Origin: an uncultured Lachnospiraceae bacterium
Lineage (GTDB): Bacteria > Bacillota > Clostridia > Lachnospirales > Lachnospiraceae
Assembly (NCBI GenBank): GCA_947626415.1
Contig: CANQSA010000011.1
Span: 11,100 to 75,099 of the forward strand
DNA length: 64,000 bases
Reading direction: 5' to 3'
Below are positions 14,704 through 58,241 of the stretch, one piece after another. The stretch's first letter is position 1. Each line of letters opens with the position of its first letter. The notes under the pieces were generated by a model. The model was not told where the DNA came from. It did not search any database and saw only the letters and a list, made by a program, of their open reading frames with translations. The position numbers and the translations under genes were made by a program.

Positions 14704-14741
14704 TCAAATCATTCCTTTCTTCTTAACTTTTGTCTCTATGC

Positions 14742-15284
14742 TTAATCTGGTATTTCCGGAGTTGGCAGAATACGCAGCAGCAGCTTTCCCTCAACTTGAT
14801 CGCTATCTATGTAACCAACCACAGTATTCCGTGAATCAATGGACGTTCGCCTGTTGTCGCCCATCACGAAATAGCTGCCTTCCGGTACAGTAACGGGATA
14901 TTCTACCGTGCTGTTGCCAAGACTGACGCCATTCAGGTATGGCTCGGCAAGTTCCGTGCCGTTCACATAGACAACGCCGTTTTCGTCGATACGGATTTCG
15001 TCGCCGCCTGTGCCGATCACGCGCTTGCAAAAAATCCTGCCATTCATTGAAAATACGCAAATATCGCCCCTTTCAAGTGTTGCGGTTTTCCGAGTGATCA
15101 CGATGTCTCCGTCAAACAGAGTCGGACTCATGGAATCCCCGTAAATGCGTACTACAGGAAATACACAGATCACAAGCAGGGTGACGGTTATTGCGGTGAC
15201 CGCCGCACTCACTGCCGCCGCTGCAAGGATCTTAAATAGCCTTTTCTTACGATTACGTTTCTTTTCTTTCCCCATAGGCATCAC
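14742..15284 (-). CDS. Signal peptidase I embedded in the pilus operon (SipA/LepA-like position)
   Basis: GDSMSPTL (catalytic Ser box) and CKRVIGTGGDE (Lys box) are both present, as is GDNRRTSIDSR. The start overlaps the stop of the upstream adhesin gene. Confidence 0.85.
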   Translation of the reverse strand: MMPMGKEKKRNRKKRLFKILAAAAVSAAVTAITVTLLVICVFPVVRIYGDSMSPTLFDGDIVITRKTATLERGDICVFSMNGRIFCKRVIGTGGDEIRIDENGVVYVNGTELAEPYLNGVSLGNSTVEYPVTVPEGSYFVMGDNRRTSIDSRNTVVGYIDSDQVEGKLLLRILPTPEIPD

Positions 15285-18200
15285 CCGTCCGGTCCGTCAC
15301 GGCTCAGGCGCTTTTTGCAGAGTAGCTGTTTTCTATATTTAAGATATTGCATTGCGATAGCCAGAATCCCCGCAATCATCAGCATCAAGCCAAGGAAAAG
15401 ACGCCCGTTAATGCCAAATCCGCCCGTTGTCGGCAGTTCCTTTATGAGTCCATTCACAAACAAACGGTATTGAACCGCATTTTTGCTGGTAATGGTGTCG
15501 CCGATAGGGTCGCCGCTCGTAAGCAGATTTGGTCCATCATCTGAATCATGATCTCTCACGTACAGGAGCATATATTTGTCCGTATTGGTTTCGGTAATTT
15601 GATACTGCGTATCTGCCGGAATATCGCTGAATTCAACCTTTTCACCATCCTTCAGCGTGAAGCTGTAGGTCCATTTATTAGTCTCTTTTTTAGGATCGAT
15701 GCTTTTCGTACCGCCCTTAACTGCCTTTATAATTTGGTCTGTATCATTTTTATAAGTAAACACGACCTCAAACCCAAATTCTGTCGTATCCGCTTCGCTG
15801 CTGCTGACAACCTTCTTGGCTACCGTAAGATTGCCGATGGCAACATTGGTAAAAGGAATCGTAACATTTGAATCCGTTGGTTCAGAAGGTTCCGCAGGAG
15901 CAGAACTGCTCACCCTGTGCGCATAGGTGGCGACAAGCTTATGGGTCGTTTCTGTACCGCCTGGAGTAATCTCCGGCTCCTGAATGGTTATAAACAAGTC
16001 AATGGCCGGTTCACGGCAGTACATATTTTCCAGATCTTCCGTTACCTCGGATATGGTAAATTTGTATTGTGTGCCTTCCGTCAGCGTACCGATATTGTTA
16101 ATTTCTACTTTGCCAAATGATTGTTTAATTATATCGCCAGTTGTAGAAACACTGTTAATTTTTACTGTATAAGAACCGTCCGATTCGTTTAGTTTCCCCG
16201 GCACTGTGATGGTTCCATTATCAATTGCATCCCGTGTTTTTAAATCCGGCTTGATCTTGAACGTAAATTGATCTTCTGCGGTCCATGCTCTCCCGATAAT
16301 CTGCTTAGAAATATCGAGATCAAATGCGGTGCTTTCGTAAGTGTTTGTAAATTGGAAAACCTCATCCTCGATCGTCTTGGAATCAGAACCCTCAATGGTC
16401 GGCTGAAGCGTACCGTCTCCGTTATCTTCAACTTCTACAATCACGTCATATGTGGCAAGTGAATTATTTTTTTCATCTTTTTCAGTAATTGTGAATTCGT
16501 ATGTTCCCGCCTTCGTGAATTTGATTGCATCAAACACTTTTGTGTAGTCATTAGTGATGTCATCGCTTGTAATGCTAAGTTCTTTGCTGTCTCCAGGCGC
16601 AAAGCTGCACCCGCCCACTTCATTCTCGCTATCAGCGGTTAGGGTAAATGTGAACTCATCAGTGGCAAGCCAATTCCTGCCGGCCAATACCTTTTGTATC
16701 TTTGGCACCCATGTATAGCTTGTGTGGTAGGTATTGGTGATCGTGATCGTGTGACTGCCTCCATTTACATCCTCATGCTTATCCCATCTTCTGACAAGGA
16801 GTTTGGCATCTTTCGGCTGTACAGTCTCGTGCGTTTCTGTGACATCTATTAATTTATTGTTTTTATCAACATAAAACCAGGCATACTTTCCACCATCAGA
16901 TGGCGTGCCAGGGACTTTCCATTGATCAAATTCCAGTACCTCTGCCCTTGTCTGACAAGTAGCTACACAATCTTCTTCCTTTAATTTGGTCACATCTGTC
17001 ACTGAATGATCAACATGATAGAGTTTCATGTCGATCTCATCAATAATGCCGTCTTCCTCTTCCTCTTCAAGACTTCCGACACTGACTTTTGCTTCTGCGT
17101 TTCTCAGAACGATCTGGAGATAATACACCGTATCATCATAGTCGATTCCCTTTGTCTCAGCCGGAATCGTCTCGGCAATTTTCAGCCAGTACGTGACAGG
17201 GATCGTCTGGGCGGAATATTGCCCAGGATTGCGGCCAATCTGTTCTTTCGGCGGTGTAGGATAATCTTCAGTGGAATTCCATACATTGTTCGGGTCTGTC
17301 GGATCTTCGCCATTTTTCACATACTGTACCGGAAAAATAATCCCGTTGAATGTAAATGAATCAAACTTCCACTCTGCATGACCTTCACTGCCACCAGTAA
17401 ATGTATGAACCCATTCATTTTTTGCACCCGCTTTACTCAGATCTCCAAACCCTGCGCCATTTATCACAAGATTTCCTTTTTTTATCGCATCCTGCGTTTC
17501 TGTGTCTACACCGGATACCGTAATCGTAAATTCATCTGTAGAAAGCCATTCATTTCCTTTTCTTCCCGTAAAATTCTTGACAATCTTGTAACTCGTATCC
17601 TGCTTTGCCGGGGCAGGCGCATACCGGTTGGTAAACAGCGGACTGCTTCCGGCGTAGATCTGTGTAACGCCATCTGCATCCTCTGTATAAGTAATAGAAG
17701 AAACTTCTGCTACAAGGTGGGAATTATCCTCCATTAAATCTGTTACTGCTGTTCCGGTTGCATCTGGCACACGGGTCACACTGAGGATAACCGTATATTC
17801 ATAGTCAGATTTTATCAAAGTATCATCATCTGTAATGTCATTTTCATAAATGGTAAAGGTATAGACACCTGCCATAGGGAATGTCACACCACAGAAAGAA
17901 GCGTATGTATTCGTTTTCGTACGGTCAAATTCACTGCCGTCTACCAGAAGCTGATCGGACATTTTCCGGTCGGCATAAGTAAATGTATTTGTTTTTCCTT
18001 CTACATGAGTGTCCTTTGCGGAATAGCTGTAATAAGGGTTAGAATTCCCCACTTCGACTATATTCTTTTTATCTGCCGAATTTTCTTTGAATTCGTCTGC
18101 GAACGCAGTAGCTAACACAAGAGGTGTCTCTCCCGCGTTACTAATGATTGCTTGTTCTGCTGCGTCAACTCTGATGCCGACTGCTGTACTCAATTCTGTT

Positions 18201-21200
18201 GAAGTACTGCTGTCGTATGCATTTAATACCTTAAACGAAAACCGGTCATTCTCTTGCCATGCTCTGCCCTCGATTCGTTTGAGAATATAGAAATTGGTAT
18301 CAGCAGGCGCGTTACCGACATCAACCTTTACATAATTATTAGTATCAAATTTGTATATCCCTTCTGCGGCATTAACCTCTTCTGATGAATCTTTAGCGTA
18401 TACAACATAAAACGGATTCAGGATACGGAAACCGGCAGGCGCGAACACTTCACGAATGAAATAACTCTTAGTCGGGTCAAGTCCGGGGAATGCGATACGT
18501 CCGTTAGATCTCGTGGTTGCAGAACCAACCTGGCAGTCTTTTAATGTTTTTGTAGCCGCCTGATCGCCTTTTTCCGCTTCTGTTACCAGGTTTTTCATCT
18601 CGTCTACGGTTTTTCCAGTCAGATCATAAACACGAAATGTAGCGCCCTGCAAAGCATTGCTTTCTACATTTGTGCCCTGATACTTGAAGATTTCAATCGT
18701 GCCGGGTGCTTTTGCATTAGTAATGGTAATGGTTGTCCTGTCCGAGCTGATATTTCTGTCAAGGACAGCTTTATAAAGGGCCGCATTTTCAGCAAGCGCA
18801 CTGCCCCAATTAATATTTTTTAGAACAGACAGGTCAGGAATATTGGAGAAGTTCTTCACCGTGCCGCCCAGTTCGGAAAGCTCTGCCCGGTATGTTGTCC
18901 CGACAAAGCTGCCATATTTTCCGTTTTCATAAGCAAATGTATGCCTATAGATATTATCACCGTCAATATAATACTCCGCCGCGACATAATAATCTTCAAC
19001 CGGACTGCCGTCAAATGTCTTAGAGAGATATTCGTTCTCATATTGCCATGATGTGATCGCCGATATTACATGGTAAGCATATACTTTATCGCCGCCGGTC
19101 GTATTGCAGTGTACCTCGTACGCGACTGCTGTCGGGTGAGTTTCCGTTGTATCCCATGTCTTTTTCAGCACAAGCGACTGTGACATTATCTCATAATTAT
19201 AACCGACATCGACCGCACAGACGGCGTTGGTTGTGTTTGGAACAGACGGATCATGGCCCATAACTGTCGGATCGACTTGACCAACTTGCTTGCCAACTAT
19301 AATGCGCTGCACTTCTGTCCCTTTATATGTTGTTCCATAACTCTTATTCGCATAGTAGCCATACGCTACTGAATCTCTGGTAAGAGACTCAGCCGTTATC
19401 CCTTGACTCGTCAGCGTATAACGTTCATCCGGCTTTATCACCTGATATAAGTATTCCGTTCCCGCTGTGGGATCATATTCCAGTCCCGTGAATTTATACA
19501 TTCCCTCGCCTGTAGTCAGACCTGTGTCAACAAGTTCATATTTATTGGAAGCGCTTGCAAAAGTGTTTGAATCAAGCAAAGTTACCGTACCATCATCCGA
19601 ATTATAAGTAACATATGTTTTTTTTGCATCATATGAAGTACTCGTTGTTTTCTTGTATAAATTCAGCGTAACATCTTTCAGTGGGTAGTCCCCATCCGCA
19701 CTCATGTCGTTATATATACCATCCTTTTTTACATCAAAGAAAACACGACCTGTGAGATTGAACGAATGCTCAGGACGCGGTCCAATTGTTATACCATCTA
19801 TATCGATGGATGCCCGAGCCGGTTTTGCGGGAATAAATGTCCAGAAATTAGCGATCGCATAATCCGTAGTAGAAGGAGTTGTAGTCGACTTGCCCACAGG
19901 ATTATCTAAACTGCTCAGATAGCTGATCATATTTTTCTGATCTTCCGTCGGTTTAGTTATCAGATTGCCGTTTTTGTCAAAATATTCAATAACATTTGTG
20001 GTGTGACTGTGATCGCCTATTCTGATATTCGGATGATCTTTAATGTATTGTGTATTCCGTGCGGCCTGTTCACCGCCGCCAGGGCCCATATTCTTATATT
20101 GGAAATACTGTCCTCCATTTCCATCATCCGTATTAAACTTATTTTTTGCCACATCTACATTTGCTTCTGAATGTCCGGTAGATGCGGCAGGTTCGCCGTA
20201 GTAGATGGCTGTTTCATCATAATAGATAACGTTTTTTGTCAGCTCATAAATGGAACCCTCCGTATCTTGCTGTTCTCCGTTTTTATCATAGATATGACTC
20301 AATCTGGTGAAAGTGATACCACCGGGCGCATTCTCCATATCAATGATAGGAAAATGGATCTCGCCGGCTTTCGTAGTAACAGTAAAGGTAAAATCATTTA
20401 TTGTATACTTGTTACTCGGTATAACAGTTCCATTGCCATCTTTACCGTTCCAGTAAAAATAATTAGTTGAATGTGGCGTAACCGCTCCCGATATTTCCAC
20501 CGGGGCATATTTTTGATTGCCTTCTCCTTCAAATTCAAGGCGCAAGGTCGCTGTCGTCGCTTCTTCTACATCGAAGGAAAAATATCCGCCCTCCCCCTCA
20601 TAAGCACCGGGAATATTATTTCCCTCGGTGTCTTTGATCGTACTTACAAAGCGCAGATTGGTTGCGGGATCCGGCTGGACCGCTTTCTCATATAATTCTC
20701 CCTCCAGCTGATCATTCGGATATTCCAGAAAAATATAATAGCTTTTCAACATTTCTGTATCCTTTGTACCGGGATATTTATACGCTGCGCCCATTTCATC
20801 AAAGGTGTTTTGATTGTTGATATCCTTCACCGAGGTGTAGATGATCTCACCTGTTGCGGAATCATAAATACCTTTATTATTCGTAAAGAAATTATAGGTA
20901 TATGGTTTCACATTGTTAAATTTCATTTTATAAATATAGCTGTCCGTTGTTAAAATATAGTAGGTGTCTACTACACCGGTAGCGGCAGGATGCATTTGTA
21001 AAGATAGAAAATCCGCATATGTGCGGCCATGTTGTTCCGTTCCGCTTTCGTCAAATACCGTTAAATTTAATGCGGCAATTTCTCCACCATAATTTATCTT
21101 TGGATTATGAAAAGGTTCCGATCTTTTTCTGTAATTTGCTTCATCGTTTACCGTATTGCTTTTATTATAAGAATGAAACTCAAAAGTATATACGCCTGTT

Positions 21201-21832
21201 TCAGTAACCGTGTAGGTATAGGGAATGTATTTATAAGTAGCGCTTCCATCCGTATATTCTCCAAAAAATTTTCCATCTTCTTTATGTAATGCGCTCACGG
21301 CGGCATATTCTGTCTGCCAATTGCCGATATATCCTGTTGTATTTAACTCATCCTCATCCCCTGCTTGAGAATTTCGGATATCAATTGTGTGTGTATTTCC
21401 ATTCAGATCGGTCATTACAATATCAACTGAGTCTTTATCGCCAGTATGCTTATTTGCAGTATGACTTAAATCCAGCGTAGAGTTGTACACGCTGGAACCT
21501 ACACAAATTGTATCTCCCTCAAAGGCATATACATGAAAAATTGTCCTATATTCTACTCCGCCGAAACTACTATTACGACATGCATAGTATGGACGTGCAG
21601 CTTCCAGATAATCCGTATCCGGTTTACCGTCCCCATTAGAATCCCACATATACTCCAGCGTCTCATTTTTATATTCATCCGGATCGTCCGCCGCAGCACT
21701 GACATTTTCCTTTTTCGTAAGATGAAACAGCTCCGGCAGCTCCGTTCCTGCCACTACCGATAAAACCATGATCAGGCACAAAAGCATCGAAAATGTTTTT
21801 TTAAGAAATGAATATGAGCCGTATTTTTTCAT
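15281..21832 (-). CDS. Giant LPXTG-anchored pilus tip adhesin (about 2183 aa)
   Basis: Signal peptide from MKKYGSYSFLKK (SD GGAGAG 7 nt upstream; the track start at 21871 lies inside a hairpin). It has an E-box YFIREVFAPAGF and repeated FxFxL-type modules (FSFKVLNAY, FTITVSGVD, FTFTLTADS, FTFKIKPD, FGFEVVFTY) like streptococcal pilin isopeptide-linker repeats. The C-terminus is LPTTGG plus a TM helix. Confidence 0.85.
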   Translation of the reverse strand: MKKYGSYSFLKKTFSMLLCLIMVLSVVAGTELPELFHLTKKENVSAAADDPDEYKNETLEYMWDSNGDGKPDTDYLEAARPYYACRNSSFGGVEYRTIFHVYAFEGDTICVGSSVYNSTLDLSHTANKHTGDKDSVDIVMTDLNGNTHTIDIRNSQAGDEDELNTTGYIGNWQTEYAAVSALHKEDGKFFGEYTDGSATYKYIPYTYTVTETGVYTFEFHSYNKSNTVNDEANYRKRSEPFHNPKINYGGEIAALNLTVFDESGTEQHGRTYADFLSLQMHPAATGVVDTYYILTTDSYIYKMKFNNVKPYTYNFFTNNKGIYDSATGEIIYTSVKDINNQNTFDEMGAAYKYPGTKDTEMLKSYYIFLEYPNDQLEGELYEKAVQPDPATNLRFVSTIKDTEGNNIPGAYEGEGGYFSFDVEEATTATLRLEFEGEGNQKYAPVEISGAVTPHSTNYFYWNGKDGNGTVIPSNKYTINDFTFTVTTKAGEIHFPIIDMENAPGGITFTRLSHIYDKNGEQQDTEGSIYELTKNVIYYDETAIYYGEPAASTGHSEANVDVAKNKFNTDDGNGGQYFQYKNMGPGGGEQAARNTQYIKDHPNIRIGDHSHTTNVIEYFDKNGNLITKPTEDQKNMISYLSSLDNPVGKSTTTPSTTDYAIANFWTFIPAKPARASIDIDGITIGPRPEHSFNLTGRVFFDVKKDGIYNDMSADGDYPLKDVTLNLYKKTTSTSYDAKKTYVTYNSDDGTVTLLDSNTFASASNKYELVDTGLTTGEGMYKFTGLEYDPTAGTEYLYQVIKPDERYTLTSQGITAESLTRDSVAYGYYANKSYGTTYKGTEVQRIIVGKQVGQVDPTVMGHDPSVPNTTNAVCAVDVGYNYEIMSQSLVLKKTWDTTETHPTAVAYEVHCNTTGGDKVYAYHVISAITSWQYENEYLSKTFDGSPVEDYYVAAEYYIDGDNIYRHTFAYENGKYGSFVGTTYRAELSELGGTVKNFSNIPDLSVLKNINWGSALAENAALYKAVLDRNISSDRTTITITNAKAPGTIEIFKYQGTNVESNALQGATFRVYDLTGKTVDEMKNLVTEAEKGDQAATKTLKDCQVGSATTRSNGRIAFPGLDPTKSYFIREVFAPAGFRILNPFYVVYAKDSSEEVNAAEGIYKFDTNNYVKVDVGNAPADTNFYILKRIEGRAWQENDRFSFKVLNAYDSSTSTELSTAVGIRVDAAEQAIISNAGETPLVLATAFADEFKENSADKKNIVEVGNSNPYYSYSAKDTHVEGKTNTFTYADRKMSDQLLVDGSEFDRTKTNTYASFCGVTFPMAGVYTFTIYENDITDDDTLIKSDYEYTVILSVTRVPDATGTAVTDLMEDNSHLVAEVSSITYTEDADGVTQIYAGSSPLFTNRYAPAPAKQDTSYKIVKNFTGRKGNEWLSTDEFTITVSGVDTETQDAIKKGNLVINGAGFGDLSKAGAKNEWVHTFTGGSEGHAEWKFDSFTFNGIIFPVQYVKNGEDPTDPNNVWNSTEDYPTPPKEQIGRNPGQYSAQTIPVTYWLKIAETIPAETKGIDYDDTVYYLQIVLRNAEAKVSVGSLEEEEEDGIIDEIDMKLYHVDHSVTDVTKLKEEDCVATCQTRAEVLEFDQWKVPGTPSDGGKYAWFYVDKNNKLIDVTETHETVQPKDAKLLVRRWDKHEDVNGGSHTITITNTYHTSYTWVPKIQKVLAGRNWLATDEFTFTLTADSENEVGGCSFAPGDSKELSITSDDITNDYTKVFDAIKFTKAGTYEFTITEKDEKNNSLATYDVIVEVEDNGDGTLQPTIEGSDSKTIEDEVFQFTNTYESTAFDLDISKQIIGRAWTAEDQFTFKIKPDLKTRDAIDNGTITVPGKLNESDGSYTVKINSVSTTGDIIKQSFGKVEINNIGTLTEGTQYKFTISEVTEDLENMYCREPAIDLFITIQEPEITPGGTETTHKLVATYAHRVSSSAPAEPSEPTDSNVTIPFTNVAIGNLTVAKKVVSSSEADTTEFGFEVVFTYKNDTDQIIKAVKGGTKSIDPKKETNKWTYSFTLKDGEKVEFSDIPADTQYQITETNTDKYMLLYVRDHDSDDGPNLLTSGDPIGDTITSKNAVQYRLFVNGLIKELPTTGGFGINGRLFLGLMLMIAGILAIAMQYLKYRKQLLCKKRLSRDGPDG

Positions 21833-21861
21833 AATAGTCTCTCCAATCTGATCCAGACAAC

Positions 21862-21911
21862 GCAAAAGCACCTGACCGCGGCATCAATATGCCGCAGCCA
21901 GGTGCTTTTGC
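21862..21911 (-). promoter_or_regulatory. 50-nt extended hairpin in the pilus operon leader
   Basis: 13-bp outer stem GCAAAAGCACCTG/CAGGTGCTTTTGC plus 7-bp inner stem GCGGCAT/ATGCCGC. There is no U-run on either strand. It ends 30 nt upstream of the adhesin ATG. Confidence 0.6.
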
Positions 21912-21932
21912 TCTATAATTGCTCTATAATTG
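21911..21932. repeat. Tandem direct repeat, 2 x 11 bp (CTCTATAATTG)
   Basis: Two exact adjacent copies read directly from the sequence. Confidence 0.9.
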
Positions 21933-21950
21933 ACAGGGTATACTATCCCC

Positions 21951-22030
21951 TGTTCTGTTCTGTTCTGTTCTGTTCTGTTCTGTTCTGTTCTGTTCTGTTC
22001 TGTTCTGTTCTGTTCTGTTCTGTTCTGTTC
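21951..22030. repeat. Pentanucleotide microsatellite (TGTTC)16, which reads (GAACA)16 on the pilus-coding strand
   Basis: 16 exact uninterrupted units (80 bp), counted directly. Confidence 0.97.
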
Positions 22031-22032
22031 AA

Positions 22033-22061
22033 ATCGTAGTCCCAAGTCATAACCCTGTCAA
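22033..22061 (-). promoter_or_regulatory. Candidate promoter P2 abutting the microsatellite
   Basis: On the minus strand: TTGACA (inside the right inverted repeat), 17 nt, TACGAT. The predicted start falls in the first GAACA units. Confidence 0.35.
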
Positions 22062-22098
22062 CCCCTTTTTAAAAATTTTCATATACCAAATCCGTTTT

Positions 22099-22127
22099 AT
22101 TATACAAACTGTTTATCACTTTGTCAA
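22099..22127 (-). promoter_or_regulatory. Consensus sigma-A promoter P1 for the pilus operon
   Basis: On the minus strand: TTGACA (22127-22122), exactly 17 nt, TATAAT (22104-22099). This gives a leader of about 260 nt to the adhesin ATG. Confidence 0.6.
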
Positions 22128-22216
22128 GATAATCATAACTGGTTCGAATTTTTCTTATGAATTTGCGAGTTAGAACGACCCCACGGACTCTGCGGAAAAC
22201 GCAATATAAATCGAAG

Positions 22217-22245
22217 TTGCATTTTTACGCTTTTTTGGTTATTAT
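22217..22245 (+). promoter_or_regulatory. Candidate promoter of the DUF3990/NADAR gene set
   Basis: TTGCAT, 17 nt, TATTAT. Confidence 0.45.
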
Positions 22246-22309
22246 TTATTTGGGAGGAGGATGCGTTATGCCAGCAGTAAATATATATATATGACGCGTG
22301 AAGGTAAAG

Positions 22310-22800
22310 ATGGAAAAAATAATATTATATCATGGAACTCCCGATAAAAACGTTCTGCCTACTTTCGGTTTAGGAGATGATAAACATGATTACGGAAGAG
22401 GCTTTTATCTGACTGAAGATCCGGAACTTGCAAAAGAATGGGCAGTTTGCCGGCCTAATAATGAAAACGGTTGGCTCCATAAATTGATGTTGTTAAGGGC
22501 TGGCGGGCCAATGCTTCCTACTTCTACATAGTCAAAGAGTTTGTCAGAGATAATGTAGATGTTGATATTCTTGAAGAACTTTTACAATTAGGCGGATTGG
22601 GAATGCAGTATTGTATCAAATCTCAATTTGCATACACAAGGCTTCACGAAGCAGAAACTGAACCGACGATAGTAAGCTACGACGAATTTAACGCAAAGTA
22701 TAATTCACGGGATGTTGCGGCAAGACAGAAAATGCGGGATCTGGTGAATTCCGATGCTAACAAAGTAACTAATGTCTTCAGTACACTTTTTGAAAGGTAA
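22310..22800 (+). pseudogene. DUF3990-family gene, frameshifted and probably internally deleted
   Basis: The N-terminal part MEKIILYHGTPD...DYGRGFYLTEDPELAKEWA stops at 22531. The continuation (VVKGWRANASYFYIVKEF...LGGLGMQYCIKSQFAY) is in the -1 frame, open from 22483 to 22800. Confidence 0.6.
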
Positions 22801-22805
22801 AAACA

Positions 22806-23222
22806 ATGCCGGCATATTCAGATGTTTATTTGGATGATGTGGTAGAAAATCAGGGAAAACTCTTTGATTTTGTAGCACAGTCATTTCCTAATACGGATAC
22901 AATAGAATTCATTAAGGCGTATATGACTAGTAAAACACGAAAGAGCATTGATGAAGCAAAAGCTTATGTGATTACGATGACCGCGGAAGAACTGTGGAAT
23001 TACTTTTCAAAAACGGAAGGGTATAAACTTAAAACAGGACATGCACTCCAGGGATTTATGCCCGATTGGATCGGTGAATTCTATGCTTATTATCAATGGT
23101 ATTACAATATACCAAGCCCGGAAGTGATTAAAAAAGTGCCCATTGACTTTTTGATGAAAGCTTATTATGGGCTCCATGATCTGGAACTGGATCTGGCAGT
23201 AAAGAAAGTTGGTGAAGTGTAA
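22806..23222 (+). CDS. Hypothetical protein (138 aa) between the DUF3990 remnant and NADAR
   Basis: Intact ORF whose stop overlaps the NADAR start (TAATG); no recognised family. Confidence 0.55.
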   Translation: MPAYSDVYLDDVVENQGKLFDFVAQSFPNTDTIEFIKAYMTSKTRKSIDEAKAYVITMTAEELWNYFSKTEGYKLKTGHALQGFMPDWIGEFYAYYQWYYNIPSPEVIKKVPIDFLMKAYYGLHDLELDLAVKKVGEV

Positions 23223-23695
23223 TGCAGATTTTATGTTTTCACAACCCTGGTGAAGAAAACGGTTTTTTAAGTAACTGGTACCTTTCTCGCTTTATAGTAG
23301 ATGATATTTCCTTTTCTTCCATGGAGCAGTTTATGATGTATAAAAAAGCTGTCTGTTTCCGAGATGCTAATATAGCCGCTCAGATTTTAGAATCCGAGGA
23401 TGTTTCTCAAATAAAATCGCTTGGACGTCTTGTTGCCGGTTATGATGACAATCTTTGGAATGGCATCAGACAGATTGTGGTATATCAAGGACTTTTTGAG
23501 AAGTTTTCACAGAATAAAGACCTAAAGGAAAAACTGTTGGAAACAGGTAATTCCATTTTAGCGGAATGCGCGGTTAACGATAGAATCTGGGGTATCGGCT
23601 TATCTATGAAAGATCCAGACAGACTTGAAAAAACAAAATGGAAAGGACAAAATCTGCTCGGTTATACTTTAATGATGGTTCGAGATCGTTTGTAA
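23222..23695 (+). CDS. NADAR (YbiA/DUF1768) family protein
   Basis: FLSNWY, MEQFMMYKKA, W-x-VV-x-GL-x-KFSQN, ECAVNDRIWGIG and NLLGYTLMMVR align with E. coli YbiA motifs as I recall them. Confidence 0.85.
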   Translation: MQILCFHNPGEENGFLSNWYLSRFIVDDISFSSMEQFMMYKKAVCFRDANIAAQILESEDVSQIKSLGRLVAGYDDNLWNGIRQIVVYQGLFEKFSQNKDLKEKLLETGNSILAECAVNDRIWGIGLSMKDPDRLEKTKWKGQNLLGYTLMMVRDRL

Positions 23696-23720: not shown

Positions 23721-23800
23721 ATTCATTCGTCCCAAAAAATACACCGTTCGTCCCAAATCTTTGTCAGCCTGCTTGTTTTAGCAGGCTGATTTATTATAAT
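23721..23800 (+). promoter_or_regulatory. Promoter/operator module, left copy
   Basis: Direct repeats TTCGTCCCAAA at 23726 and 23747 (21-bp period), then TTGTTT (23773-23778), 16 nt, TATAAT (23795-23800). About 80% identical to the inverted copy at 33281-33360. Confidence 0.6.
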
Positions 23801-23824
23801 AAAGATACGGGAATGGAGGTTTTC

Positions 23825-24397
23825 ATGAAAAAAAGAAAGCAACGCAGATTCTGGATCTGTATATCCGCGTTTATAATTGGAATTACAATAATTGCGGTTT
23901 GGCTCACCGGCCGTTTGGATTTTCCTTATAATCAGGAATTATCCAAATATTTATACCGGGACAGCAGCTGTAGGATTGAAAAAATCGAAATCCTTCGGAA
24001 ACATAAACCGGAAGAGTCCGCTCTTCCCATACAAAGGCAAAATATAATACTGGATGATCCGGCACAGATTTCCGCACTGCTCGAACAGATTGGCAATATC
24101 CGGATTGACAAACCGGAGGAGGGAGACGGAACCGACTGGGAAACATTTCGGAAAGCACAGCTTAACAATCTTTCTGATGTGAATTCCTATACAGAGTATA
24201 CGCTCACATTTCATATTGCAGGAGAAGATGAGAAATATGATGTAGAATTGCAGTACGAATATTTTTATGACAAAAATATCATAGCTGTGAGTTATCAGGA
24301 AAAAAACGGAAGCTGGAAATACAGCTTTTGTCAGACAGATCAGTGCCTGAACGACAGGATCGACGTATTTTTAAAAGCGCAGGAAGCAGGAGGGTGA
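23825..24397 (+). CDS. Hypothetical N-terminally anchored extracytoplasmic protein
   Basis: Start at MKKRKQRRFW with SD GGAGG 5 nt upstream, one TM helix. The track start at 23696 reads through the regulatory repeats. Confidence 0.55.
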   Translation: MKKRKQRRFWICISAFIIGITIIAVWLTGRLDFPYNQELSKYLYRDSSCRIEKIEILRKHKPEESALPIQRQNIILDDPAQISALLEQIGNIRIDKPEEGDGTDWETFRKAQLNNLSDVNSYTEYTLTFHIAGEDEKYDVELQYEYFYDKNIIAVSYQEKNGSWKYSFCQTDQCLNDRIDVFLKAQEAGG

Positions 24398-24404: not shown

Positions 24405-25634
24405 GTGACGATAATCTGGAATCTGTACCGGGATTACGATAGAAAAAATAACAAACAGAGCATTCTGCCAACTGTAGTGTTTATCATTTCTATTTTTATA
24501 TTGCTGATCACTAATATTGCTTCCGCCATTATCCACAAAAGTATTGATAAGACAGTTCTGACCTATGCACAGAGAACGATTACCGTAGAAGGTTTGGAAG
24601 ATTTCGCATGGTATGACTTACTGGAAAAAGAATTCGGACAAAATCCGGACATCGAAGCAGTGGAATTTGACACAAATGGAATTTTAGAACTACAGGATAT
24701 CCCGGATGGGTTTCCGCTAAAACTGACTTCAACCGGAGAAATAACGAATCAAATGTCCTTTCATGCCATACAAAAGTCAGCCATGGACTCCTGTCCCCAG
24801 ACAGAACCGGACGATCATCTTGCAGAAAATGAAATCCTGATTCCCAAATATATGTTTCGTTTGGGGCATATAAACGGTGCTTCTCAGGAATATATTGCAG
24901 GTGAACAGTTCATCGGAAAAACGCTGCAATGCGATCTGTGCGGCCAACAAACAACTTTCGTTATCCGAGGCATATACGACAATGCAGCGGAACAGGATAT
25001 CGGAACCATATATCTTTCAGCCAGTACAGCCCGATCTGCCGCTGCACGGGGAAATCTGGGATATCGGTACAGCGTTGTTGTACAGAATTATGAAGATCTT
25101 GACTTTTATAAAAGTAAAATCCGTACCTGGTATGACAGGCTGGCAGCAGAAGCACAGATTACGGATCCGGCGGGCAGTATACAAACAAATCACGGATTAA
25201 AAGAGGATGCCATTACCTTCGCAAATGCACTTTTAATCGTCTCCACGATTCTCGCAATATCAGCGATGGCCTGGGCTTGTTTCGGAATGCTCTTATCCCG
25301 TTCAAAGTCTGTAAACGCAAGAAGACAGGAATTCGGACTGCTAAAGGCGGTTGGCTATCAGGATCGGCAATTATGCGCCATGCTGCGGATGGAGTCAGCA
25401 ATTCTGTCCCTGCGGGTACTCCTGATCGCAGGCGGTTTTACGCTTGTAATTGCAACAGGCTATGGGATTTGGGTATTGACGCAATTAAATGTAATGTACC
25501 GGATCATTTTACCACAAATCAATCCTGTCTTTTTGTTTTTCATTCTGGCCGCCGACTTTCTTGTTCCCATGCTTGCCGGAGAACTGGCAGTGCGAGAAGT
25601 AAAAAAGATCACGCCTATCGAAGCGCTGCGATAA
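24405..25634 (+). CDS. ABC transporter permease, FtsX/MacB-type
   Basis: N-terminal TM, large extracytoplasmic domain, then a C-terminal 3-TM FtsX-like module (LLKAVGYQDRQL...). There is no adjacent ATPase gene. Confidence 0.75.
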   Translation: MTIIWNLYRDYDRKNNKQSILPTVVFIISIFILLITNIASAIIHKSIDKTVLTYAQRTITVEGLEDFAWYDLLEKEFGQNPDIEAVEFDTNGILELQDIPDGFPLKLTSTGEITNQMSFHAIQKSAMDSCPQTEPDDHLAENEILIPKYMFRLGHINGASQEYIAGEQFIGKTLQCDLCGQQTTFVIRGIYDNAAEQDIGTIYLSASTARSAAARGNLGYRYSVVVQNYEDLDFYKSKIRTWYDRLAAEAQITDPAGSIQTNHGLKEDAITFANALLIVSTILAISAMAWACFGMLLSRSKSVNARRQEFGLLKAVGYQDRQLCAMLRMESAILSLRVLLIAGGFTLVIATGYGIWVLTQLNVMYRIILPQINPVFLFFILAADFLVPMLAGELAVREVKKITPIEALR

Positions 25635-26320: not shown

Positions 26321-28732
26321 CTATAATTCCAGAATCCGGTCGCTGACTGCCTCGATCACCTTCCGGTCATGAGAAATGAATAAAATCGCCAGCTTCCTTT
26401 CTTTCTGCAGCTTCAGCAATAATTCCAGTACCTGCGCGCCCACTGTCGCGTCCAGTGCGGACACCGGTTCGTCCGCGATCACAAATTCCGGATTTAACAT
26501 AAGCGCCGCCGCAATGCTCACCCGCTGCCGCTGTCCGCCGCTCAGCGCGCTCGGAGAACGCCAGGCAATTTCCGGCGCAAGTCCCACCTGTTTTAACATC
26601 TGCGCTGTGCGCTGCGCCATAGCTTCCCGCTTTTTCCGGCCCGGTTCCGGCCACCAGGTTCCCTTCTGATACGCGATCCGAAGCGGCTCTTCTAAGATCC
26701 TGCCGACGGTCATCACCGGATTCAGGGAACTGTACGGATCCTGGAATACCATCTGCGGCTGTTTTGCTTTACAGGAAATGCTCCCTTCATAGCCCTTATG
26801 CAGTCCCAGCACCGCCATAGACAATGTTGTTTTCCCGCATCCACTCGGGCCTGCGACGCCCAGGATCTCGCCTTTGCGTACGGAAAAATTCAGATCCTTC
26901 TGCACATACCGTTTCCTCCGGTTTCTGCCGTAATACAGCGCACAGTGCTTCACTTCCAAAATCGGCTCTCCTTCAACCCGTACCGGCTGCTTTACCGGAA
27001 GTCTGGTCGCCGCCAGCAGCTGTCTGGTATACGTTTCTTTCGGATTTTGGAATATAGCTTCCGCAGAGCCCCGTTCTACAATCCTGCCGTTATGCAGAAC
27101 CAAAATCGAGTCGCAGATGCGATTTACCACTTCCAGATCATGAGAAATCAGGATCAGCGCCGTTTTCTGCTGACTGCAGAGCCGCTGCAGCAAAGTCAGG
27201 ATCTGCTCCTGCACTCTGGCGTCCAGCGCCGTGGTCGGTTCATCCGCGATCAGGACAGCCGGTTTACAGATCATCGCCATCGCGATCATAACCCGCTGCC
27301 GCATACCGCCCGAAAGTTCGTGCGGGTATTTGCCGCAGATCTGCTCCGGTTCCGGCAGTTCTGCCATAGACAGGGCTTCCAGTACCCGCTGATGCCGTTC
27401 CCGCCGGCTCAGCCCGGTGTGGAGCCGCAGCACTTCTTCTACCTGCGTTCCGATCCGTTTTACCGGATTTAATGAAGTCATGGGCTCCTGATAGATCATG
27501 GCGATCTGCTGCCCCTGATACCGCTTTCTCTGCTTTGCGGACAAGGCAAACAGATCGACCGGCCCGTTTTCCGTCTGATACCAGACATGACCGCTGTATG
27601 CCGCCTCTTTTGGCAGCAGCCCCATAATACTCAGCGCTGTCATGGATTTCCCGGAGCCGGACTCTCCCACAATGCCTAACTGCTGCCCCGCATGCAGCGT
27701 GAAAGAAACGCCGTCTACCACCTTCTGCGCTCCAAACGCTGCCTGTAGATTTTCCACCCGAAGCAGCGACGCGGTTTCTTCATTTCCGGCTCTTCCCGCC
27801 GCAGATTCGGCAGCCTTCGGAATCCGTTCTTCCGCTGCCTCCGCCGCCTTCAGAATTTCTATTTCTGCCATCTGATCGTCCGGCTGCGGCCGGTATCCGC
27901 CCCGTAACCGGCTGCCGCCTTTGGTGCTTACCATAACCACGCTCATTACCATAAGAACTACCGTCAGCGCCGGAAACAGACAGTACCACGGCGCGCTCAT
28001 CAGATATCCCTGAGACTCCGCCAGCATCCGCCCTAAACTGGCGTCCGGCGGCTGTACGCCCAGTCCCAGATAACTCATACTGGATTCCGCCAGCACCGCG
28101 TTGTTAAAGCCGACCACGATCGCGGACAACAGAGTTCCCCGCACATTGGGCAAAATATGTACCAGGATGATCCGTGCGTGAGACGCTCCCATCAGTCTGG
28201 CGCTTTTCACAAAAGCCTGATGGCGCAGTCCGATAAACGCGCTGCGCACTACTCTCGCATAACTGGGGATAAATACGATGCCCAGCGCCAGGATCAGCTG
28301 TGCCGTTCCGGTTCCCAGCAGACTGACGATCACCAGTGCCAGCAAGATACTGGGAAATACGGTCAGCGAGTCATTGATCCGCATCAAAATCTCATCGATC
28401 CAGCCGCCGAAATATCCGGTCAGCGCGCCGACTGCCGTTCCGATCACGGTTCCGATCAGGATCGTGGACGCGGAGATCACAAAGGTCGTCCGCATGCCTA
28501 CCAGTACCCGACTAAAAATATCCCGTCCGAAATTATCGGTTCCCATCCAGTGTGCCAAAGAAGGCGTGGAAAACCGTTCCGCCGCAGACATGGCGTTGGG
28601 ATCATACGGCGTTCGGAAAAAACTGACGCATGCCAGCAGCGCCAGCGCGCCGATCAGACATACGCCCAGCCAGAAGCTGAACCCATGCGCCTGTGTCCGT
28701 TCGATTCGATTTTTCCTGCTCGCTTTCGACAT
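26321..28732 (-). CDS. Fused peptide/nickel ABC transporter protein: DppC-like permease plus two ATPase domains
   Basis: About 285 aa of BPD-type permease, then two Walker A sites (GESGSGKS, GPSGCGKT) and two signature motifs (LSGGMRQR, LSGGQRQR) in a single 803-aa ORF. Confidence 0.85.
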   Translation of the reverse strand: MSKASRKNRIERTQAHGFSFWLGVCLIGALALLACVSFFRTPYDPNAMSAAERFSTPSLAHWMGTDNFGRDIFSRVLVGMRTTFVISASTILIGTVIGTAVGALTGYFGGWIDEILMRINDSLTVFPSILLALVIVSLLGTGTAQLILALGIVFIPSYARVVRSAFIGLRHQAFVKSARLMGASHARIILVHILPNVRGTLLSAIVVGFNNAVLAESSMSYLGLGVQPPDASLGRMLAESQGYLMSAPWYCLFPALTVVLMVMSVVMVSTKGGSRLRGGYRPQPDDQMAEIEILKAAEAAEERIPKAAESAAGRAGNEETASLLRVENLQAAFGAQKVVDGVSFTLHAGQQLGIVGESGSGKSMTALSIMGLLPKEAAYSGHVWYQTENGPVDLFALSAKQRKRYQGQQIAMIYQEPMTSLNPVKRIGTQVEEVLRLHTGLSRRERHQRVLEALSMAELPEPEQICGKYPHELSGGMRQRVMIAMAMICKPAVLIADEPTTALDARVQEQILTLLQRLCSQQKTALILISHDLEVVNRICDSILVLHNGRIVERGSAEAIFQNPKETYTRQLLAATRLPVKQPVRVEGEPILEVKHCALYYGRNRRKRYVQKDLNFSVRKGEILGVAGPSGCGKTTLSMAVLGLHKGYEGSISCKAKQPQMVFQDPYSSLNPVMTVGRILEEPLRIAYQKGTWWPEPGRKKREAMAQRTAQMLKQVGLAPEIAWRSPSALSGGQRQRVSIAAALMLNPEFVIADEPVSALDATVGAQVLELLLKLQKERKLAILFISHDRKVIEAVSDRILEL

Positions 28733-31660: not shown

Positions 31661-32518
31661 CTATGCTCCATGCCCGTTTTTCTTCCAAAATTCCTCGATC
31701 TTGGGATCCCGGATATCCTTTTGGATCATGGATTCGTTTTTTTTCAGCAAAATATGTTCCGGTCTGTAAAGCGGTTTATAGAACCGCTCCCATCCATTTT
31801 CTCTTTTCTGATCGGAAACCGAGAGCGACCATCCGTTTCCCAGATCCACGCTGTAACTGCCCTGTGCGGTTCCCTCCGCTGCCAGAGTAGAAAATTCCTC
31901 ATAACATTCAAAATCCCGCCAGACCAGATCTGTTTTCCCAAACAGAGACCGGACCTCGTCCATGGTCATAGATTTTTGGTGCGCTTCCAGGAAATCCAGC
32001 AGGATCGACCGGATCGTCTTCACATCTGCCTGCAGGTATGGGACAAGCCCTTCGCTGTCTTCTTCCATATAAATCTTACCATTATCTTCCCCCTGAAAGC
32101 TGCGGTCGTTAACGGTAATCCGCCAAAGCTCTTTTGTCTGCGTTTGTTCCTTTTGAACTTGCTCCGGTTCTGCGGACGCCGCATCCGTCATTGAAACCCG
32201 GTCCATTTCTTCCCTAAATATCCGGATCAGCTCCGGATCGGAAAACGACATACTTTTCCGCTCGGCCGAATAAGAAATCGTGTCGATCCAGACGTACTCC
32301 CATTCGCCGGTTTCCGGAGCCGCAAGCTCTGAAAATCGCCGGTTATACACCGACAGGATCTTCTCATTTTCCCATTCCCTGGATTCCTGCGCAAGGCCGG
32401 TATATACCGCCACGCTTCCCGCGATCACAAGAAAGATCACGGCCAAAAAAATAAGGATCCGATTACTCTTCCTGTGTTTATTTTTCTGTAGCTCCATCAG
32501 GTCTTCAAATTCATTCAT
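31661..32518 (-). CDS. Hypothetical N-terminally anchored protein
   Basis: 285-aa ORF with one TM helix, lying downstream of the ABC ATPase gene; no recognised family. Confidence 0.55.
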   Translation of the reverse strand: MNEFEDLMELQKNKHRKSNRILIFLAVIFLVIAGSVAVYTGLAQESREWENEKILSVYNRRFSELAAPETGEWEYVWIDTISYSAERKSMSFSDPELIRIFREEMDRVSMTDAASAEPEQVQKEQTQTKELWRITVNDRSFQGEDNGKIYMEEDSEGLVPYLQADVKTIRSILLDFLEAHQKSMTMDEVRSLFGKTDLVWRDFECYEEFSTLAAEGTAQGSYSVDLGNGWSLSVSDQKRENGWERFYKPLYRPEHILLKKNESMIQKDIRDPKIEEFWKKNGHGA

Positions 32519-32559: not shown

Positions 32560-33219
32560 CTATGCCTTTTTCAGCATCAGAACCGCATCCGCATAATCCT
32601 TAACCGCGTCATTGTGTGAAATGACAATGACCATCTTTCCACTCTCTGCCAGTATCTTTAATGTTTCAAATATATTTTCCTCATTTTTCTCATCCAGGTT
32701 GCCGGTCGGTTCATCCGCCAGAATAATCTCCGGATTGTTTGCCAGCGCCCGGGCAATTCCTACCCGCTGCTGTTCCCCGCCGGACAGCTCACTGGGATAC
32801 CGGTCTTCATATTCTTCTATATGAAATTGCCGCAGCAGTTCTCTGGCGCGCTGCCGTTTCTTTTCCCGGTTTGCTTTCCCGCTGTATTCCGGATGAATGT
32901 GCATAGGCACCATCACATTTTCCAATACGGTCAGCTTCGGATTCAGGAAAAATTCCTGAAAGACGAATCCAAACGTCATCAGCCGCATGTCCGCCCGTTC
33001 TTCTTCCCCCTGCAGGGCAAGCGGCACACTATCCAGCCGGATCTCCCCCGAGGTCTTTTCATCCAGTAATCCCAAAATATGCAGCAGCGTGGACTTTCCT
33101 ACTCCGGAAGGTCCCATTACCGCGTAAAATTTACCGGATTCAAAGGTATAATTAAAATCCTTCAGTACATAATCTTTTCCATTATACGTTTTTGCCAGAT
33201 CTGCGATCTCCAGTTTCAT
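32560..33219 (-). CDS. ABC transporter ATP-binding protein, MacB/LolD/FtsE-like
   Basis: Walker [10 protein letters not shown], signature LSGGEQQRV, Walker [12 protein letters not shown]. There is no adjacent permease gene. Confidence 0.9.
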
Positions 33220-33280: not shown

Positions 33281-33360
33281 ATTGTAGCAGATTCTGAACG
33301 TAAAACAAGCCGCTCGACACAAATTTGGGACGAACGGCCTGTTTTTTGGGACGAATGAAC
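33281..33360 (-). promoter_or_regulatory. Promoter/operator module, right (inverted) copy
   Basis: On the minus strand: TTCGTCCCAAA at 33355-33345 and 33334-33324 (21-bp period), TTGTTT, 16 nt, TACAAT (33286-33281). The internal spacings are identical to the left copy. Confidence 0.6.
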
Positions 33361-33385
33361 ATGGAAAGGCTATTTTAATCGAATT

Positions 33386-34871: not shown

Positions 34872-34905
34872 AACAATCTCACTTCCTAAAATATTTCTTT
34901 TCATG

Positions 34906-34934
34906 ATTTTACACCCTATCGGGTATGATTTCAA
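34906..34934 (-). promoter_or_regulatory. Candidate promoter of the hipB/S/A operon
   Basis: On the minus strand: TTGAAA (34934-34929), 17 nt, TAAAAT (34911-34906). The spacer is occupied by one arm of the inverted repeat. Confidence 0.5.
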
Positions 34935-34970: not shown

Positions 34971-35027
34971 CTTGTTTTGTTGTTTTATTTTTTTCTTCTT
35001 TTTTATGAATACGAATTTCCCTTGCCG

Positions 35028-58235: not shown

Positions 58236-58241
58236 AAAGGT

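What the first reader, a model, noticed from the sequence alone, without database searches (positions are those of the whole stretch)
23721..23800. Duplicated 80-bp promoter module with TTCGTCCCAAA direct repeats at 21-bp spacing (second copy inverted at 33281-33360)
Two copies about 80% identical share the same architecture. Each has an 11-mer TTCGTCCCAAA repeated exactly 21 bp apart, 15 bp further a -35-like TTGTTT inside a conserved GCTTGTTTTA block, a 16-nt spacer, and a -10 (TATAAT or TACAAT).

Direct repeats with two-helical-turn periodicity just upstream of a weak -35 are typical binding sites for response-regulator activators (OmpR/PhoB-type or LytTR-type). No such regulator gene is present in the window.

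The element explains the spurious N-terminal extension of ORF 23696 (…SHSFVPKNTPFVPN…).
Basis: partly seen in the sequence, partly recalled or inferred. Interest (0 to 1): 0.65.

Follow-up and report, generated by a model that had tools for sequence, protein, structure and literature searches.

The report
Shared LytTR-type promoter, split ABC transporter
Two promoters 9.6 kb apart carry the same pair of 21-bp-spaced repeats, which look like docking sites for a LytTR-family activator encoded elsewhere in the genome; together they would switch on the ATPase half and the membrane half of one MacB-type ABC transporter, which is a neat but fairly ordinary regulon.

Summary
TTCGTCCCAAA occurs exactly four times in the window, as two pairs 21 bp apart. 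Each pair sits 15 bp upstream of TTGTTT-16 nt-TATAAT/TACAAT and points at a downstream operon. Similarity between the copies is confined to the 80-bp module (58/80 identical; flanks are at random level).

A conspecific MAG has four such modules. They share only the blocks TTCATTCGTCCCAAAA / CCGTTCGTCCCAAA / CTTGTTTT / TAnnAT.

The repeats read as 9-mers TCATTCGTC and CCGTTCGTC separated by 12 bp, the canonical LytTR layout. The proximal 9-mer equals the experimentally defined AlgR box.

Scanning public genomes and metagenomes for TTCGTCCCAA-N11-TTCGTCCCAA found Pfam-confirmed LytTR genes immediately next to the motif in many unrelated lineages. That is about a 16-fold enrichment within 1 kb.

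No LytTR or receiver-domain gene was found in the window, so the regulator is unidentified. Module A drives an orphan membrane protein plus an FtsX permease. Module B drives the matching ABC ATPase plus another orphan membrane protein.

Verdict: an activator-dependent promoter with LytTR-type sites, and a new member of a known kind. Binding and transcription starts are inferred, not shown.

The parts
23723..23736 (+).
   Evidence: invariant in the four-module alignment
23744..23757 (+). Module A proximal repeat CCGTTCGTCCCAAA (9-mer core CCGTTCGTC at 23744-23752, identical to the AlgR consensus; 12-bp spacer from the distal core)
   Evidence: AlgR consensus
23773..23778 (+). Module A weak -35 TTGTTT inside the invariant CTTGTTTT block
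23795..23800 (+). Module A -10 TATAAT, 16 nt after the -35
23763..23790 (+). GC-rich hairpin (11 pairs) with the -35 in its loop, followed by a T-rich run. Present in module A and its near-identical paralogue L049, absent from module B and L010. Possibly a terminator for the upstream gene.
   Evidence: -20.1 kcal/mol, z = -5.25
23825..24397 (+). First gene of operon A: a 190-aa protein with a hydrophobic N-terminal segment (membrane anchoring judged by eye) and no known family. The true start is ATG 23825, after GGAGG at 23815-23819.
24405..25634 (+). Second gene of operon A: a 409-aa FtsX-type (MacB-like) ABC permease
   Evidence: Pfam FtsX E = 3.2e-10; PDB 5xu1_M, deposited as an ABC transporter permease, E = 1e-4
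33345..33358 (-). Module B distal repeat TCATTCGTCCCAAA
33324..33337 (-). Module B proximal repeat CCGTTCGTCCCAAA
33303..33308 (-). Module B -35 TTGTTT
33281..33286 (-). Module B -10 TACAAT, preceded by TGc (extended -10-like), 16 nt after the -35
32560..33219 (-). First gene of operon B: a 219-aa ABC ATPase of the MacB/LolD/lactococcin-972-exporter type
   Evidence: Pfam ABC_tran E = 3.6e-33; NCBIfam TIGR03608, LolD, DarD and MacB are the best hits, all below their curated cut-offs
31661..32518 (-). Second gene of operon B: a 285-aa orphan protein with a hydrophobic N-terminal segment (membrane anchoring judged by eye). A 37%-identical paralogue follows the L010 module.

Best explanation
Each 80-bp module is an activator-dependent housekeeping-sigma promoter. 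It has a weak -35 (TTGTTT) and a good -10.

The promoter is preceded by two direct repeats, TCATTCGTCCCAAA and CCGTTCGTCCCAAA. Their 9-bp cores are separated by 12 bp (21-bp period, same DNA face). They are centred at about -78 and -57 from the inferred start.

A LytTR-domain transcription factor encoded outside the window would bind the two repeats, probably as a dimer, and recruit RNA polymerase.

One module precedes an FtsX-type permease and the other precedes a MacB-type ATPase. The regulator would therefore co-induce the two halves of one type VII (MacB-like) ABC transporter, plus two lineage-specific accessory proteins.

In the same species at least two more modules front paralogous permease and accessory genes, so this is a small regulon of envelope or peptide-export and resistance-type transporters.

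Shown: the sequence architecture, its conservation, and the genomic association of the repeat with LytTR genes. Inferred: binding, activation, transcription start, regulator identity and substrate.
For: 1. Only four exact 11-mers occur in the window, as two 21-bp-spaced pairs. Chance expectation is 0.01.
2. Similarity is confined to the module; the flanks are at random level.
3. A conspecific MAG (96-97% nucleotide identity) carries four modules. Only the repeats, CTTGTTTT and TAnnAT are invariant, at fixed distances, and all four point at downstream genes.
4. Downstream genes all belong to one functional set: 190-aa protein + FtsX; ATPase + 285-aa protein; a 295-aa paralogue; FtsX + a 151-aa protein.
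5. The module stays with the downstream operon when the upstream context differs between strains.
6. The 9 + 12 bp layout matches the LytTR canon (PMC6193735; PMC11347149). The proximal core matches the AlgR consensus CCGTTCGTC 9 of 9 and the distal core 7 of 9.
7. TTCGTCCCAA-N11-TTCGTCCCAA lies beside LytTR genes in 8 of 52 genome loci and 13 of 93 metagenome loci. It is typically 13-80 bp from the gene end, or just upstream or divergent.
8. LytTR is the largest genuine neighbour family. All ten neighbours checked pass Pfam LytTR.
9. There are 19 LytTR ORFs within 1 kb of the motif (247 kb of sequence) against 3 in the other 607 kb.
10. Contig L105, which I take to be Firmicutes-like from its sequence only, pairs the motif with a REC-LytTR gene. 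There the motif sits 5 bp upstream of a TTGAAC-17-TATAGT promoter.
Against: - No LytTR gene is present in the window or in the four 8-kb MAG loci, so no cognate regulator is identified.
- The proximal 9-mer core ends 20 bp before the -35 (15 bp from the end of the 11-mer). Described LytTR systems usually have 4-11 bp, so the site is about one helical turn further upstream.
- The cross-lineage association was found using the exact 10-mer as bait. Most hits (about 85%) have no LytTR gene in the DNA held, although many contigs are short. Some hits are clearly other things: Rep_3-type iterons and acidic coding repeats.
- Several LytTR-adjacent loci are near-duplicates of one another, so the number of independent lineages is nearer 13 than 21.
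- There are no expression or binding data.
Confidence: 0.7

Rival explanations
1. The repeats are sites for an OmpR/PhoB-type winged-helix response regulator.
For: Direct repeats upstream of a weak -35 are also typical of this family. MacB/FtsX-type resistance transporters in Firmicutes are often controlled by OmpR-family regulators (established knowledge, not tested here).
Against: OmpR/PhoB boxes are tandem half-sites with a 10-11 bp period. Here nothing resembling the repeat occurs at that offset, and the period is 21 bp. The core equals a LytTR (AlgR) site. The recurring neighbour of the motif elsewhere is LytTR; no winged-helix family emerged from the neighbour clustering.
Confidence: 0.08
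2. A DNA-binding protein of some other family, or a repressor or architectural protein, uses the repeats. On this reading the resemblance to LytTR boxes is coincidental in this lineage.
For: The same 10-mer at the same phase also serves as an apparent iteron next to Rep_3-like initiator genes (L013, L016). It also forms arrays with no LytTR gene nearby in Planctomycetes and rumen Bacteroidales. The sequence is therefore not exclusive to LytTR contexts. The spacing to the -35 is atypical.
Against: The position at about -50 to -85, upstream of a weak -35, fits activation rather than repression. The 16-fold local enrichment of LytTR genes and the 9/9 AlgR match would both have to be coincidence.
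Confidence: 0.15
3. The module is non-regulatory repeated DNA: a REP-like or mobile-element remnant, or a relic of segmental duplication. The hairpin in copy A would merely be the terminator of the NADAR gene.
For: Module A and the L049 module are 93.5% identical over 77 bp, which suggests recent duplication. Copy A contains a strong terminator-like hairpin.
Against: There are only 2 copies in 64 kb and 4 exact-pattern copies in the conspecific MAG. All lie 5' of, and are oriented towards, genes of one functional class. Conservation is block-wise, covering the repeats, -35 and -10, with variable sequence in between. The hairpin is absent from modules B and L010. The module persists when the upstream gene is different or absent.
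Confidence: 0.04

Closest known systems
AlgR binding sites of Pseudomonas aeruginosa (LytTR-family response regulator; consensus CCGTTCGTC)
   Same: The proximal 9-mer of all four modules is CCGTTCGTC, identical to the footprinted and ChIP-seq consensus (PMC4064291, PMC4787818). The distal one is TCATTCGTC (7 of 9).
   Different: AlgR sites are mostly single 9-mers at very variable distances (-470 to +391) and in either orientation. Here there are two phased repeats at a fixed distance from the promoter, with a conserved CCCAAA extension that is not part of the AlgR consensus. The organism is a Lachnospiraceae-like Firmicute (by resemblance to a MAG titled so), and no AlgR homologue was identified.
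Direct-repeat promoters of the AgrA / ComE / PlnC / BlpR type (LytTR response regulators of quorum-sensing and bacteriocin loci)
   Same: Two 9-bp direct repeats separated by 12 bp lie upstream of a weak -35 and act as activator sites. They often control peptide export and immunity ABC transporters (established knowledge).
   Different: The repeat sequence differs from those boxes (I recall AgrA's as ACAGTTAAG-like; this is from memory and was not checked here). The proximal repeat is 15-20 bp rather than a few bp from the -35. No peptide pheromone, histidine kinase or bacteriocin gene is visible nearby.
LytTR Regulatory Systems (HdrRM/BrsRM of Streptococcus mutans and relatives; PMC6193735)
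   Same: The 9 + 12 bp direct-repeat layout upstream of the -35 is the same. Some of these systems are linked to ABC transporters. Membrane-embedded LytTR regulators in Bacteroides are noted in that paper and resemble the regulators found next to this motif in Bacteroidota loci.
   Different: LRS boxes are ACCNCTTAN-like and sit about 10 bp from the -35. None of the boxes tabulated there contains TCGTCC or GTCCCA. LRS are autoregulated operons that encode the regulator; here the regulator is not adjacent.
MacB-type (type VII) ABC transporters of Gram-positive bacteria, for example Spr0694-0695 (PDB 5xu1), and lactococcin-972-type exporters
   Same: The ATPase scores best against the Lcn972-exporter, LolD, DarD and MacB models. 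The permease has an FtsX domain and matches 5xu1 chain M.
   Different: The ATPase and permease genes are in two separate, oppositely oriented operons 7 kb apart and are linked only by the shared promoter module. All NCBIfam scores are below the curated cut-offs. The accessory proteins are orphans (5 representatives among 1.84 billion). Substrate is unknown.

Membership tests
LytTR-family regulator binding site (LytTR box) | Two or more direct repeats of about 9 bp separated by 11-13 bp (period about 21 bp) | tested here: met
   TCATTCGTC-12 bp-CCGTTCGTC in both modules. The same holds in the two extra MAG modules. Canon taken from PMC6193735 and PMC11347149.
LytTR-family regulator binding site (LytTR box) | Repeat sequence matches an experimentally defined LytTR site | tested here: met
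   The proximal core matches the AlgR consensus CCGTTCGTC 9 of 9; the distal core matches 7 of 9. It does not match the LRS-type ACCNCTTAN box.
LytTR-family regulator binding site (LytTR box) | Repeats lie immediately upstream (about 4-11 bp) of the -35 of the regulated promoter | tested here: inconclusive
   They are upstream of and co-oriented with a conserved -35/-10. The gap is 20 bp from the 9-mer core (15 bp from the 11-mer), about one helical turn more than usual. In the Firmicutes-like contig L105 the same motif is 5 bp from a -35.
LytTR-family regulator binding site (LytTR box) | The same motif is genomically linked to LytTR-domain genes | tested here: met
   8 of 52 genome loci and 13 of 93 metagenome loci have a LytTR gene, mostly 13-80 bp from the motif. 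Pfam LytTR was confirmed in 10 of 10 tested. There are 19 LytTR ORFs within 1 kb against 3 in 2.5 times more distal DNA.
LytTR-family regulator binding site (LytTR box) | A cognate LytTR protein of this organism binds the repeats and activates transcription | not testable with these tools
   No LytTR domain is found in the window (best E = 0.49) or in the MAG loci. The rest of the genome could not be scanned. No binding or expression data exist.
OmpR/PhoB-type response-regulator box | Tandem half-sites with a 10-11 bp period | tested here: not met
   The period is 21 bp. The 12-bp spacer (CCAAAAAATACA in module A) holds no copy of the repeat core.
REP-like or dispersed intergenic repeat | Many copies, including at non-promoter positions and in either orientation relative to genes | tested here: not met
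   There are 2 copies in 64 kb even with 3 mismatches allowed and 4 exact-pattern copies in the conspecific MAG. All lie 5' of and point towards transporter or accessory genes. The full genome was not scanned with a degenerate pattern.
MacB-type (type VII) ABC transporter | Cytoplasmic ABC ATPase of the MacB/LolD/FtsE clade plus a permease with a C-terminal FtsX domain | tested here: met
   ABC_tran E = 3.6e-33 and FtsX E = 3.2e-10. Best NCBIfam hits are the Lcn972 exporter, LolD, DarD and MacB, all below the curated cut-offs. PDB 5xu1_M matches at E = 1e-4. That the two proteins pair physically is inferred from shared regulation only.

The most novel reading that the evidence does not exclude
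TTCGTCCCAA repeated at a 21-bp phase may be an unusually conserved, cross-phylum recognition code for one subfamily of LytTR domains. That subfamily would include receiver-less proteins with a membrane-like N-terminal region, REC-LytTR response regulators and stand-alone LytTR proteins. In this scan the motif lies beside such genes in loci titled Bacteroidales, Prolixibacteraceae, Saprospiraceae, Blastocatellia (Acidobacteria), Ramlibacter (Proteobacteria) and Kapaibacterium, and in a Firmicutes-like contig. If so, the regulons of these uncharacterised regulators, including the one here, can be read from sequence. The box is an AlgR-like class distinct from the AgrA/ComE and LRS boxes described so far.
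Probability: 0.45. Interest if true: 0.55.

Novelty: new member of a known kind. Interest (0 to 1): 0.42.

Why it matters
- It gives a concrete, testable cis-regulatory code for an uncultured gut Lachnospiraceae-like species. One signal, acting through a LytTR-type factor, would co-induce a transporter whose ATPase and permease genes lie in separate operons. Gene order alone would not reveal that link.
- It assigns a first functional context (LytTR-controlled envelope or export module) to orphan proteins that have almost no relatives.
- More broadly, the same 10-mer pair next to LytTR genes across phyla suggests a reusable motif for predicting targets of the many uncharacterised LytTR regulators that lack a receiver domain.
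- It is not a new kind of mechanism.

Tried and rejected
- Metagenome scan with a 26-base lineage-specific pattern (ATTCGTCCCAAA-N8-CCGTTCGTCCCAAA): 0 hits, so no extra Lachnospiraceae modules or adjacent regulators were obtained.
- Homologue searches with the FtsX permease and the 285-aa protein returned only the same-species cluster. An exhaustive HMMER search found just 5 representatives of the 285-aa family. No comparative context from other species was therefore available.
- Contigs carrying the 285-aa protein only re-sample the window region.
- Viral-contig scan: 4 hits, at least 2 of them duplicates of metagenome loci (L151 = L086, L154 = L126); the other two were not examined.
- Rfam on the whole window: nothing, so no known leader RNA accounts for the conservation.
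- PDB sequence search for the 285-aa protein: nothing. The 190-aa and 285-aa proteins are not detectably related to each other.
- Full-text search for TTCGTCCCAA: only incidental primer-like occurrences among the 15 listed of 63 papers, and no bacterial regulatory motif. A search for 'LytTR' together with 'FtsX' gave nothing relevant.
- ECF-sigma promoter reading of the repeats: considered by eye and rejected. The conserved CTTGTTTT / TAnnAT blocks at a 16-17 nt spacing already form a housekeeping-type promoter downstream of the repeats.

Full report
**Observation**

The 11-mer TTCGTCCCAAA occurs exactly four times in the 64-kb window: at 23726 and 23747 on the + strand, and at 33345-33355 and 33324-33334 on the - strand. 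Allowing three mismatches, the two-repeat pattern still matches only these two places. Shuffled sequence gives 0.01 expected matches.

Both copies have the same downstream anatomy:
- 15 bp, then TTGTTT inside a conserved CTTGTTTT block;
- a 16-nt spacer;
- then TATAAT (23795-23800) or TACAAT (33286-33281).

Ungapped identity over the 80 bp is 58/80 (72.5%). The 80-nt flanks on either side are 21/80 and 17/80 identical, which is random level. The similarity is therefore confined to the module.

**Gene context**

Module A points at two genes:
- A 190-aa protein with a hydrophobic N-terminal segment (23825-24397). Public gene calls also give 190 aa.
- A 409-aa FtsX-domain permease (24405-25634).

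Module B points the other way, also at two genes:
- A 219-aa ABC ATPase (33219-32560).
- A 285-aa orphan protein with a hydrophobic N-terminal segment (32518-31661).

The ATPase scores best against the lactococcin-972-exporter, LolD, DarD and MacB models, all below their curated cut-offs. The permease matches a chain of PDB entry 5xu1 deposited as an ABC transporter permease; I recall this entry as a pneumococcal MacAB-like transporter. The two operons thus encode complementary halves of a MacB-type ABC transporter. They are separated by an Opp-like transporter and a HAD hydrolase.

The genes just upstream of the modules are unrelated: NADAR before A and hipA before B.

**No regulator in the window**

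A profile built from LytTR domains finds nothing in six-frame translation (best E = 0.49). Pfam scans of 30 window ORFs, including those I could not place by eye, show no receiver, OmpR-type or LytTR domain. The remaining ORFs were judged only by eye from their first 60 residues. Rfam finds no known RNA anywhere in the window.

**A regulon in the same species**

A scan of representative genomes for TTCGTCCCAA-N11-TTCGTCCCAA hit a Lachnospiraceae MAG (CANQOK01). That MAG is 96-97% identical to the window at the nucleotide level and carries four modules:
- the two seen in the window (L042, L051);
- one between an ABC ATPase gene and a 295-aa paralogue of the 285-aa protein (L010; 37% identity);
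- one between two FtsX permease genes (L049).

Aligning the four modules, the invariant columns fall into four blocks at fixed spacing: TTCATTCGTCCCAAAA, CCGTTCGTCCCAAA, CTTGTTTT and TAnnAT. The sequence between them varies. This is the footprint expected of functional promoter elements rather than of a recently copied segment.

All four modules face genes of one functional class.

In the MAG, the hipBA genes and a 13.7-kb sortase/pilus/adhesin/NADAR island are absent. The modules then abut different upstream genes. The module therefore travels with the downstream operon.

**What binds the repeats**

Read in a 9-mer register, the repeats are TCATTCGTC and CCGTTCGTC separated by 12 bp. That is the canonical LytTR layout: 9-bp direct repeats, an 11-13 bp spacer, upstream of the -35 (PMC6193735; PMC11347149).

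CCGTTCGTC is exactly the consensus of AlgR, a LytTR-family response regulator. It was defined by footprinting and confirmed by ChIP-seq (PMC4064291; PMC4787818).

Independent evidence comes from the genome scan and a later metagenome scan:
- The largest genuine protein family encoded next to the motif is LytTR: 8 of 52 genome loci and 13 of 93 metagenome loci.
- By record title, the genome loci include Bacteroidales, Prolixibacteraceae, Saprospiraceae, Anaerophaga, Blastocatellia, Ramlibacter and Kapaibacterium. One metagenome contig looks Firmicutes-like from its sequence.
- The motif usually lies 13-80 bp beyond the stop of the LytTR gene in the same orientation, or 20-80 bp upstream of it, or in a divergent intergenic region.
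- All ten neighbours tested pass Pfam LytTR. Five have no receiver domain and carry a hydrophobic, membrane-like N-terminal region (judged by eye), four are REC-LytTR proteins and one is a stand-alone domain.
- As an internal control, 19 LytTR ORFs lie within 1 kb of the motif (247 kb of DNA) against 3 in the remaining 607 kb. That is a roughly 16-fold enrichment.

Some loci are near-duplicates, so about 13 independent lineages is a fairer count.

In the Firmicutes-like contig L105, a REC-LytTR gene is divergent from a lipoprotein gene. That gene's TTGAAC-17-TATAGT promoter starts 5 bp after the second repeat.

**Mechanism proposed**

A LytTR-domain factor encoded elsewhere binds the two phased repeats, centred near -78 and -57. 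It activates a promoter whose -35 is too weak to work well alone. This co-induces the permease operon and the ATPase operon, plus at least two more operons outside the window.

The architecture, its conservation and the genomic association are shown. Binding, activation, the start sites, the pairing of ATPase with permease, the signal and the substrate are inferred.

**Differences from the textbook case**

- The proximal core is 20 bp from the -35 (15 bp from the end of the 11-mer). Tabulated LytTR systems have 4-11 bp. The extra distance is about one helical turn, so the binding face is kept.
- The conserved CCCAAA extension is not part of the AlgR consensus.
- The box differs from the ACCNCTTAN boxes of LytTR regulatory systems. 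None of those tabulated contains this core.

**Rivals**

- OmpR/PhoB-type box: disfavoured, because there is no half-site at a 10-11 bp period and the neighbour analysis did not recover such a family.
- Dispersed repeat or duplication relic: disfavoured by copy number, orientation, block-wise conservation and persistence across different upstream contexts.
- Some other DNA-binding family: cannot be excluded. The same 10-mer at the same phase also appears as apparent iterons next to Rep_3-like genes (L013, L016). It also forms multi-copy arrays with no LytTR gene in the DNA held, in Planctomycetes and rumen Bacteroidales.

**Known or new**

This is a new member of a known kind: a LytTR-type direct-repeat activator site controlling export-type ABC transporter genes. 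Two aspects are mildly new:
- the split transporter tied together only by the shared module;
- the apparent cross-phylum conservation of the TTCGTCCCAA pair beside LytTR genes. I did not find this described in the open-access literature searched.

**What failed**

- A lineage-specific metagenome pattern found nothing.
- Protein homologue searches returned only the same species.
- The 285-aa family has 5 representatives among 1.84 billion.

The regulator could therefore not be identified by comparative context.

Noticed in passing
window 23763-23790 (also L049 about 2455-2488, - strand): A strong GC-rich hairpin (about -20 kcal/mol, z about -5) followed by a T-rich run, with the promoter's -35 hexamer in its loop. 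It is present only in module A and its near-identical paralogue, not in module B or L010. It may be a terminator for the upstream gene nested inside the promoter.
   Followed up: partly
window 9950-23692 and 33363-35127: Both stretches are absent from a conspecific MAG (96-97% identity). The first is a 13.7-kb island with sortases, Cna_B pilin, a 2196-aa surface protein, a DUF3990 fragment and NADAR. The second is a hipBA toxin-antitoxin cassette. Each indel ends flush against module A or module B.
   Followed up: partly
window 21950-22030: A perfect (CTGTT)x16 pentanucleotide tract lies just upstream of the 2196-aa surface-protein ORF (15281-21871, - strand). It is a candidate slipped-strand phase-variation switch.
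   Followed up: no
window 58296-58886: A ToxN-family (type III toxin-antitoxin) ORF sits between mnmE and mnmG near the replication origin. Only a 19-nt x2.1 repeat (58202-58242) lies upstream, not a long ToxI-like array.
   Followed up: no
window 26321-28732 (- strand): A single 803-aa ORF fuses an Opp-type permease domain (BPD_transp_1) to two ABC ATPase domains. It lies in the peptide-transporter operon between the two modules.
   Followed up: no
L011, L033, L060, L066, L072, L089, L148 and others: Planctomycete-type contigs carry 3-5 tandem 21-bp units (CCCGATTCGTCCCAACGCGCG). In L011 the array lies upstream of a very large secreted-protein-like ORF. No LytTR gene is present in the DNA held.
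   Followed up: partly
L004, L019, L022, L024, L027, L046, L052, L058: Rumen and rectum Bacteroidales MAGs share arrays of TTGGGATA-TTCGTCCCAAG units at a 21-bp period in apparently non-coding DNA. Their function and partner protein were not determined.
   Followed up: no
L013 about 171-222 and L016 321-372: The same 10-mer forms 3-4 tandem 21-bp units next to Rep_3-like replication initiator genes, which look like plasmid iterons. The motif is therefore not exclusive to LytTR contexts.
   Followed up: partly
L028, L038, L070, L074, L111, L121, L128, L136: In Bacteroidales, a LytTR gene with a membrane-like N-terminal region is followed by the motif and then a conserved multi-pass membrane protein of about 220 aa (MDYLSALLLGLSSGIACISxCLPG...). 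This is a recurrent regulator-target pair.
   Followed up: partly
window 31661-32518 (- strand): The 285-aa accessory protein belongs to a tiny family: 5 representatives among 1.84 billion clustered proteins. It has conserved WRDFECY and DIRDxxIEEFW motifs shared with its 295-aa paralogue.
   Followed up: partly
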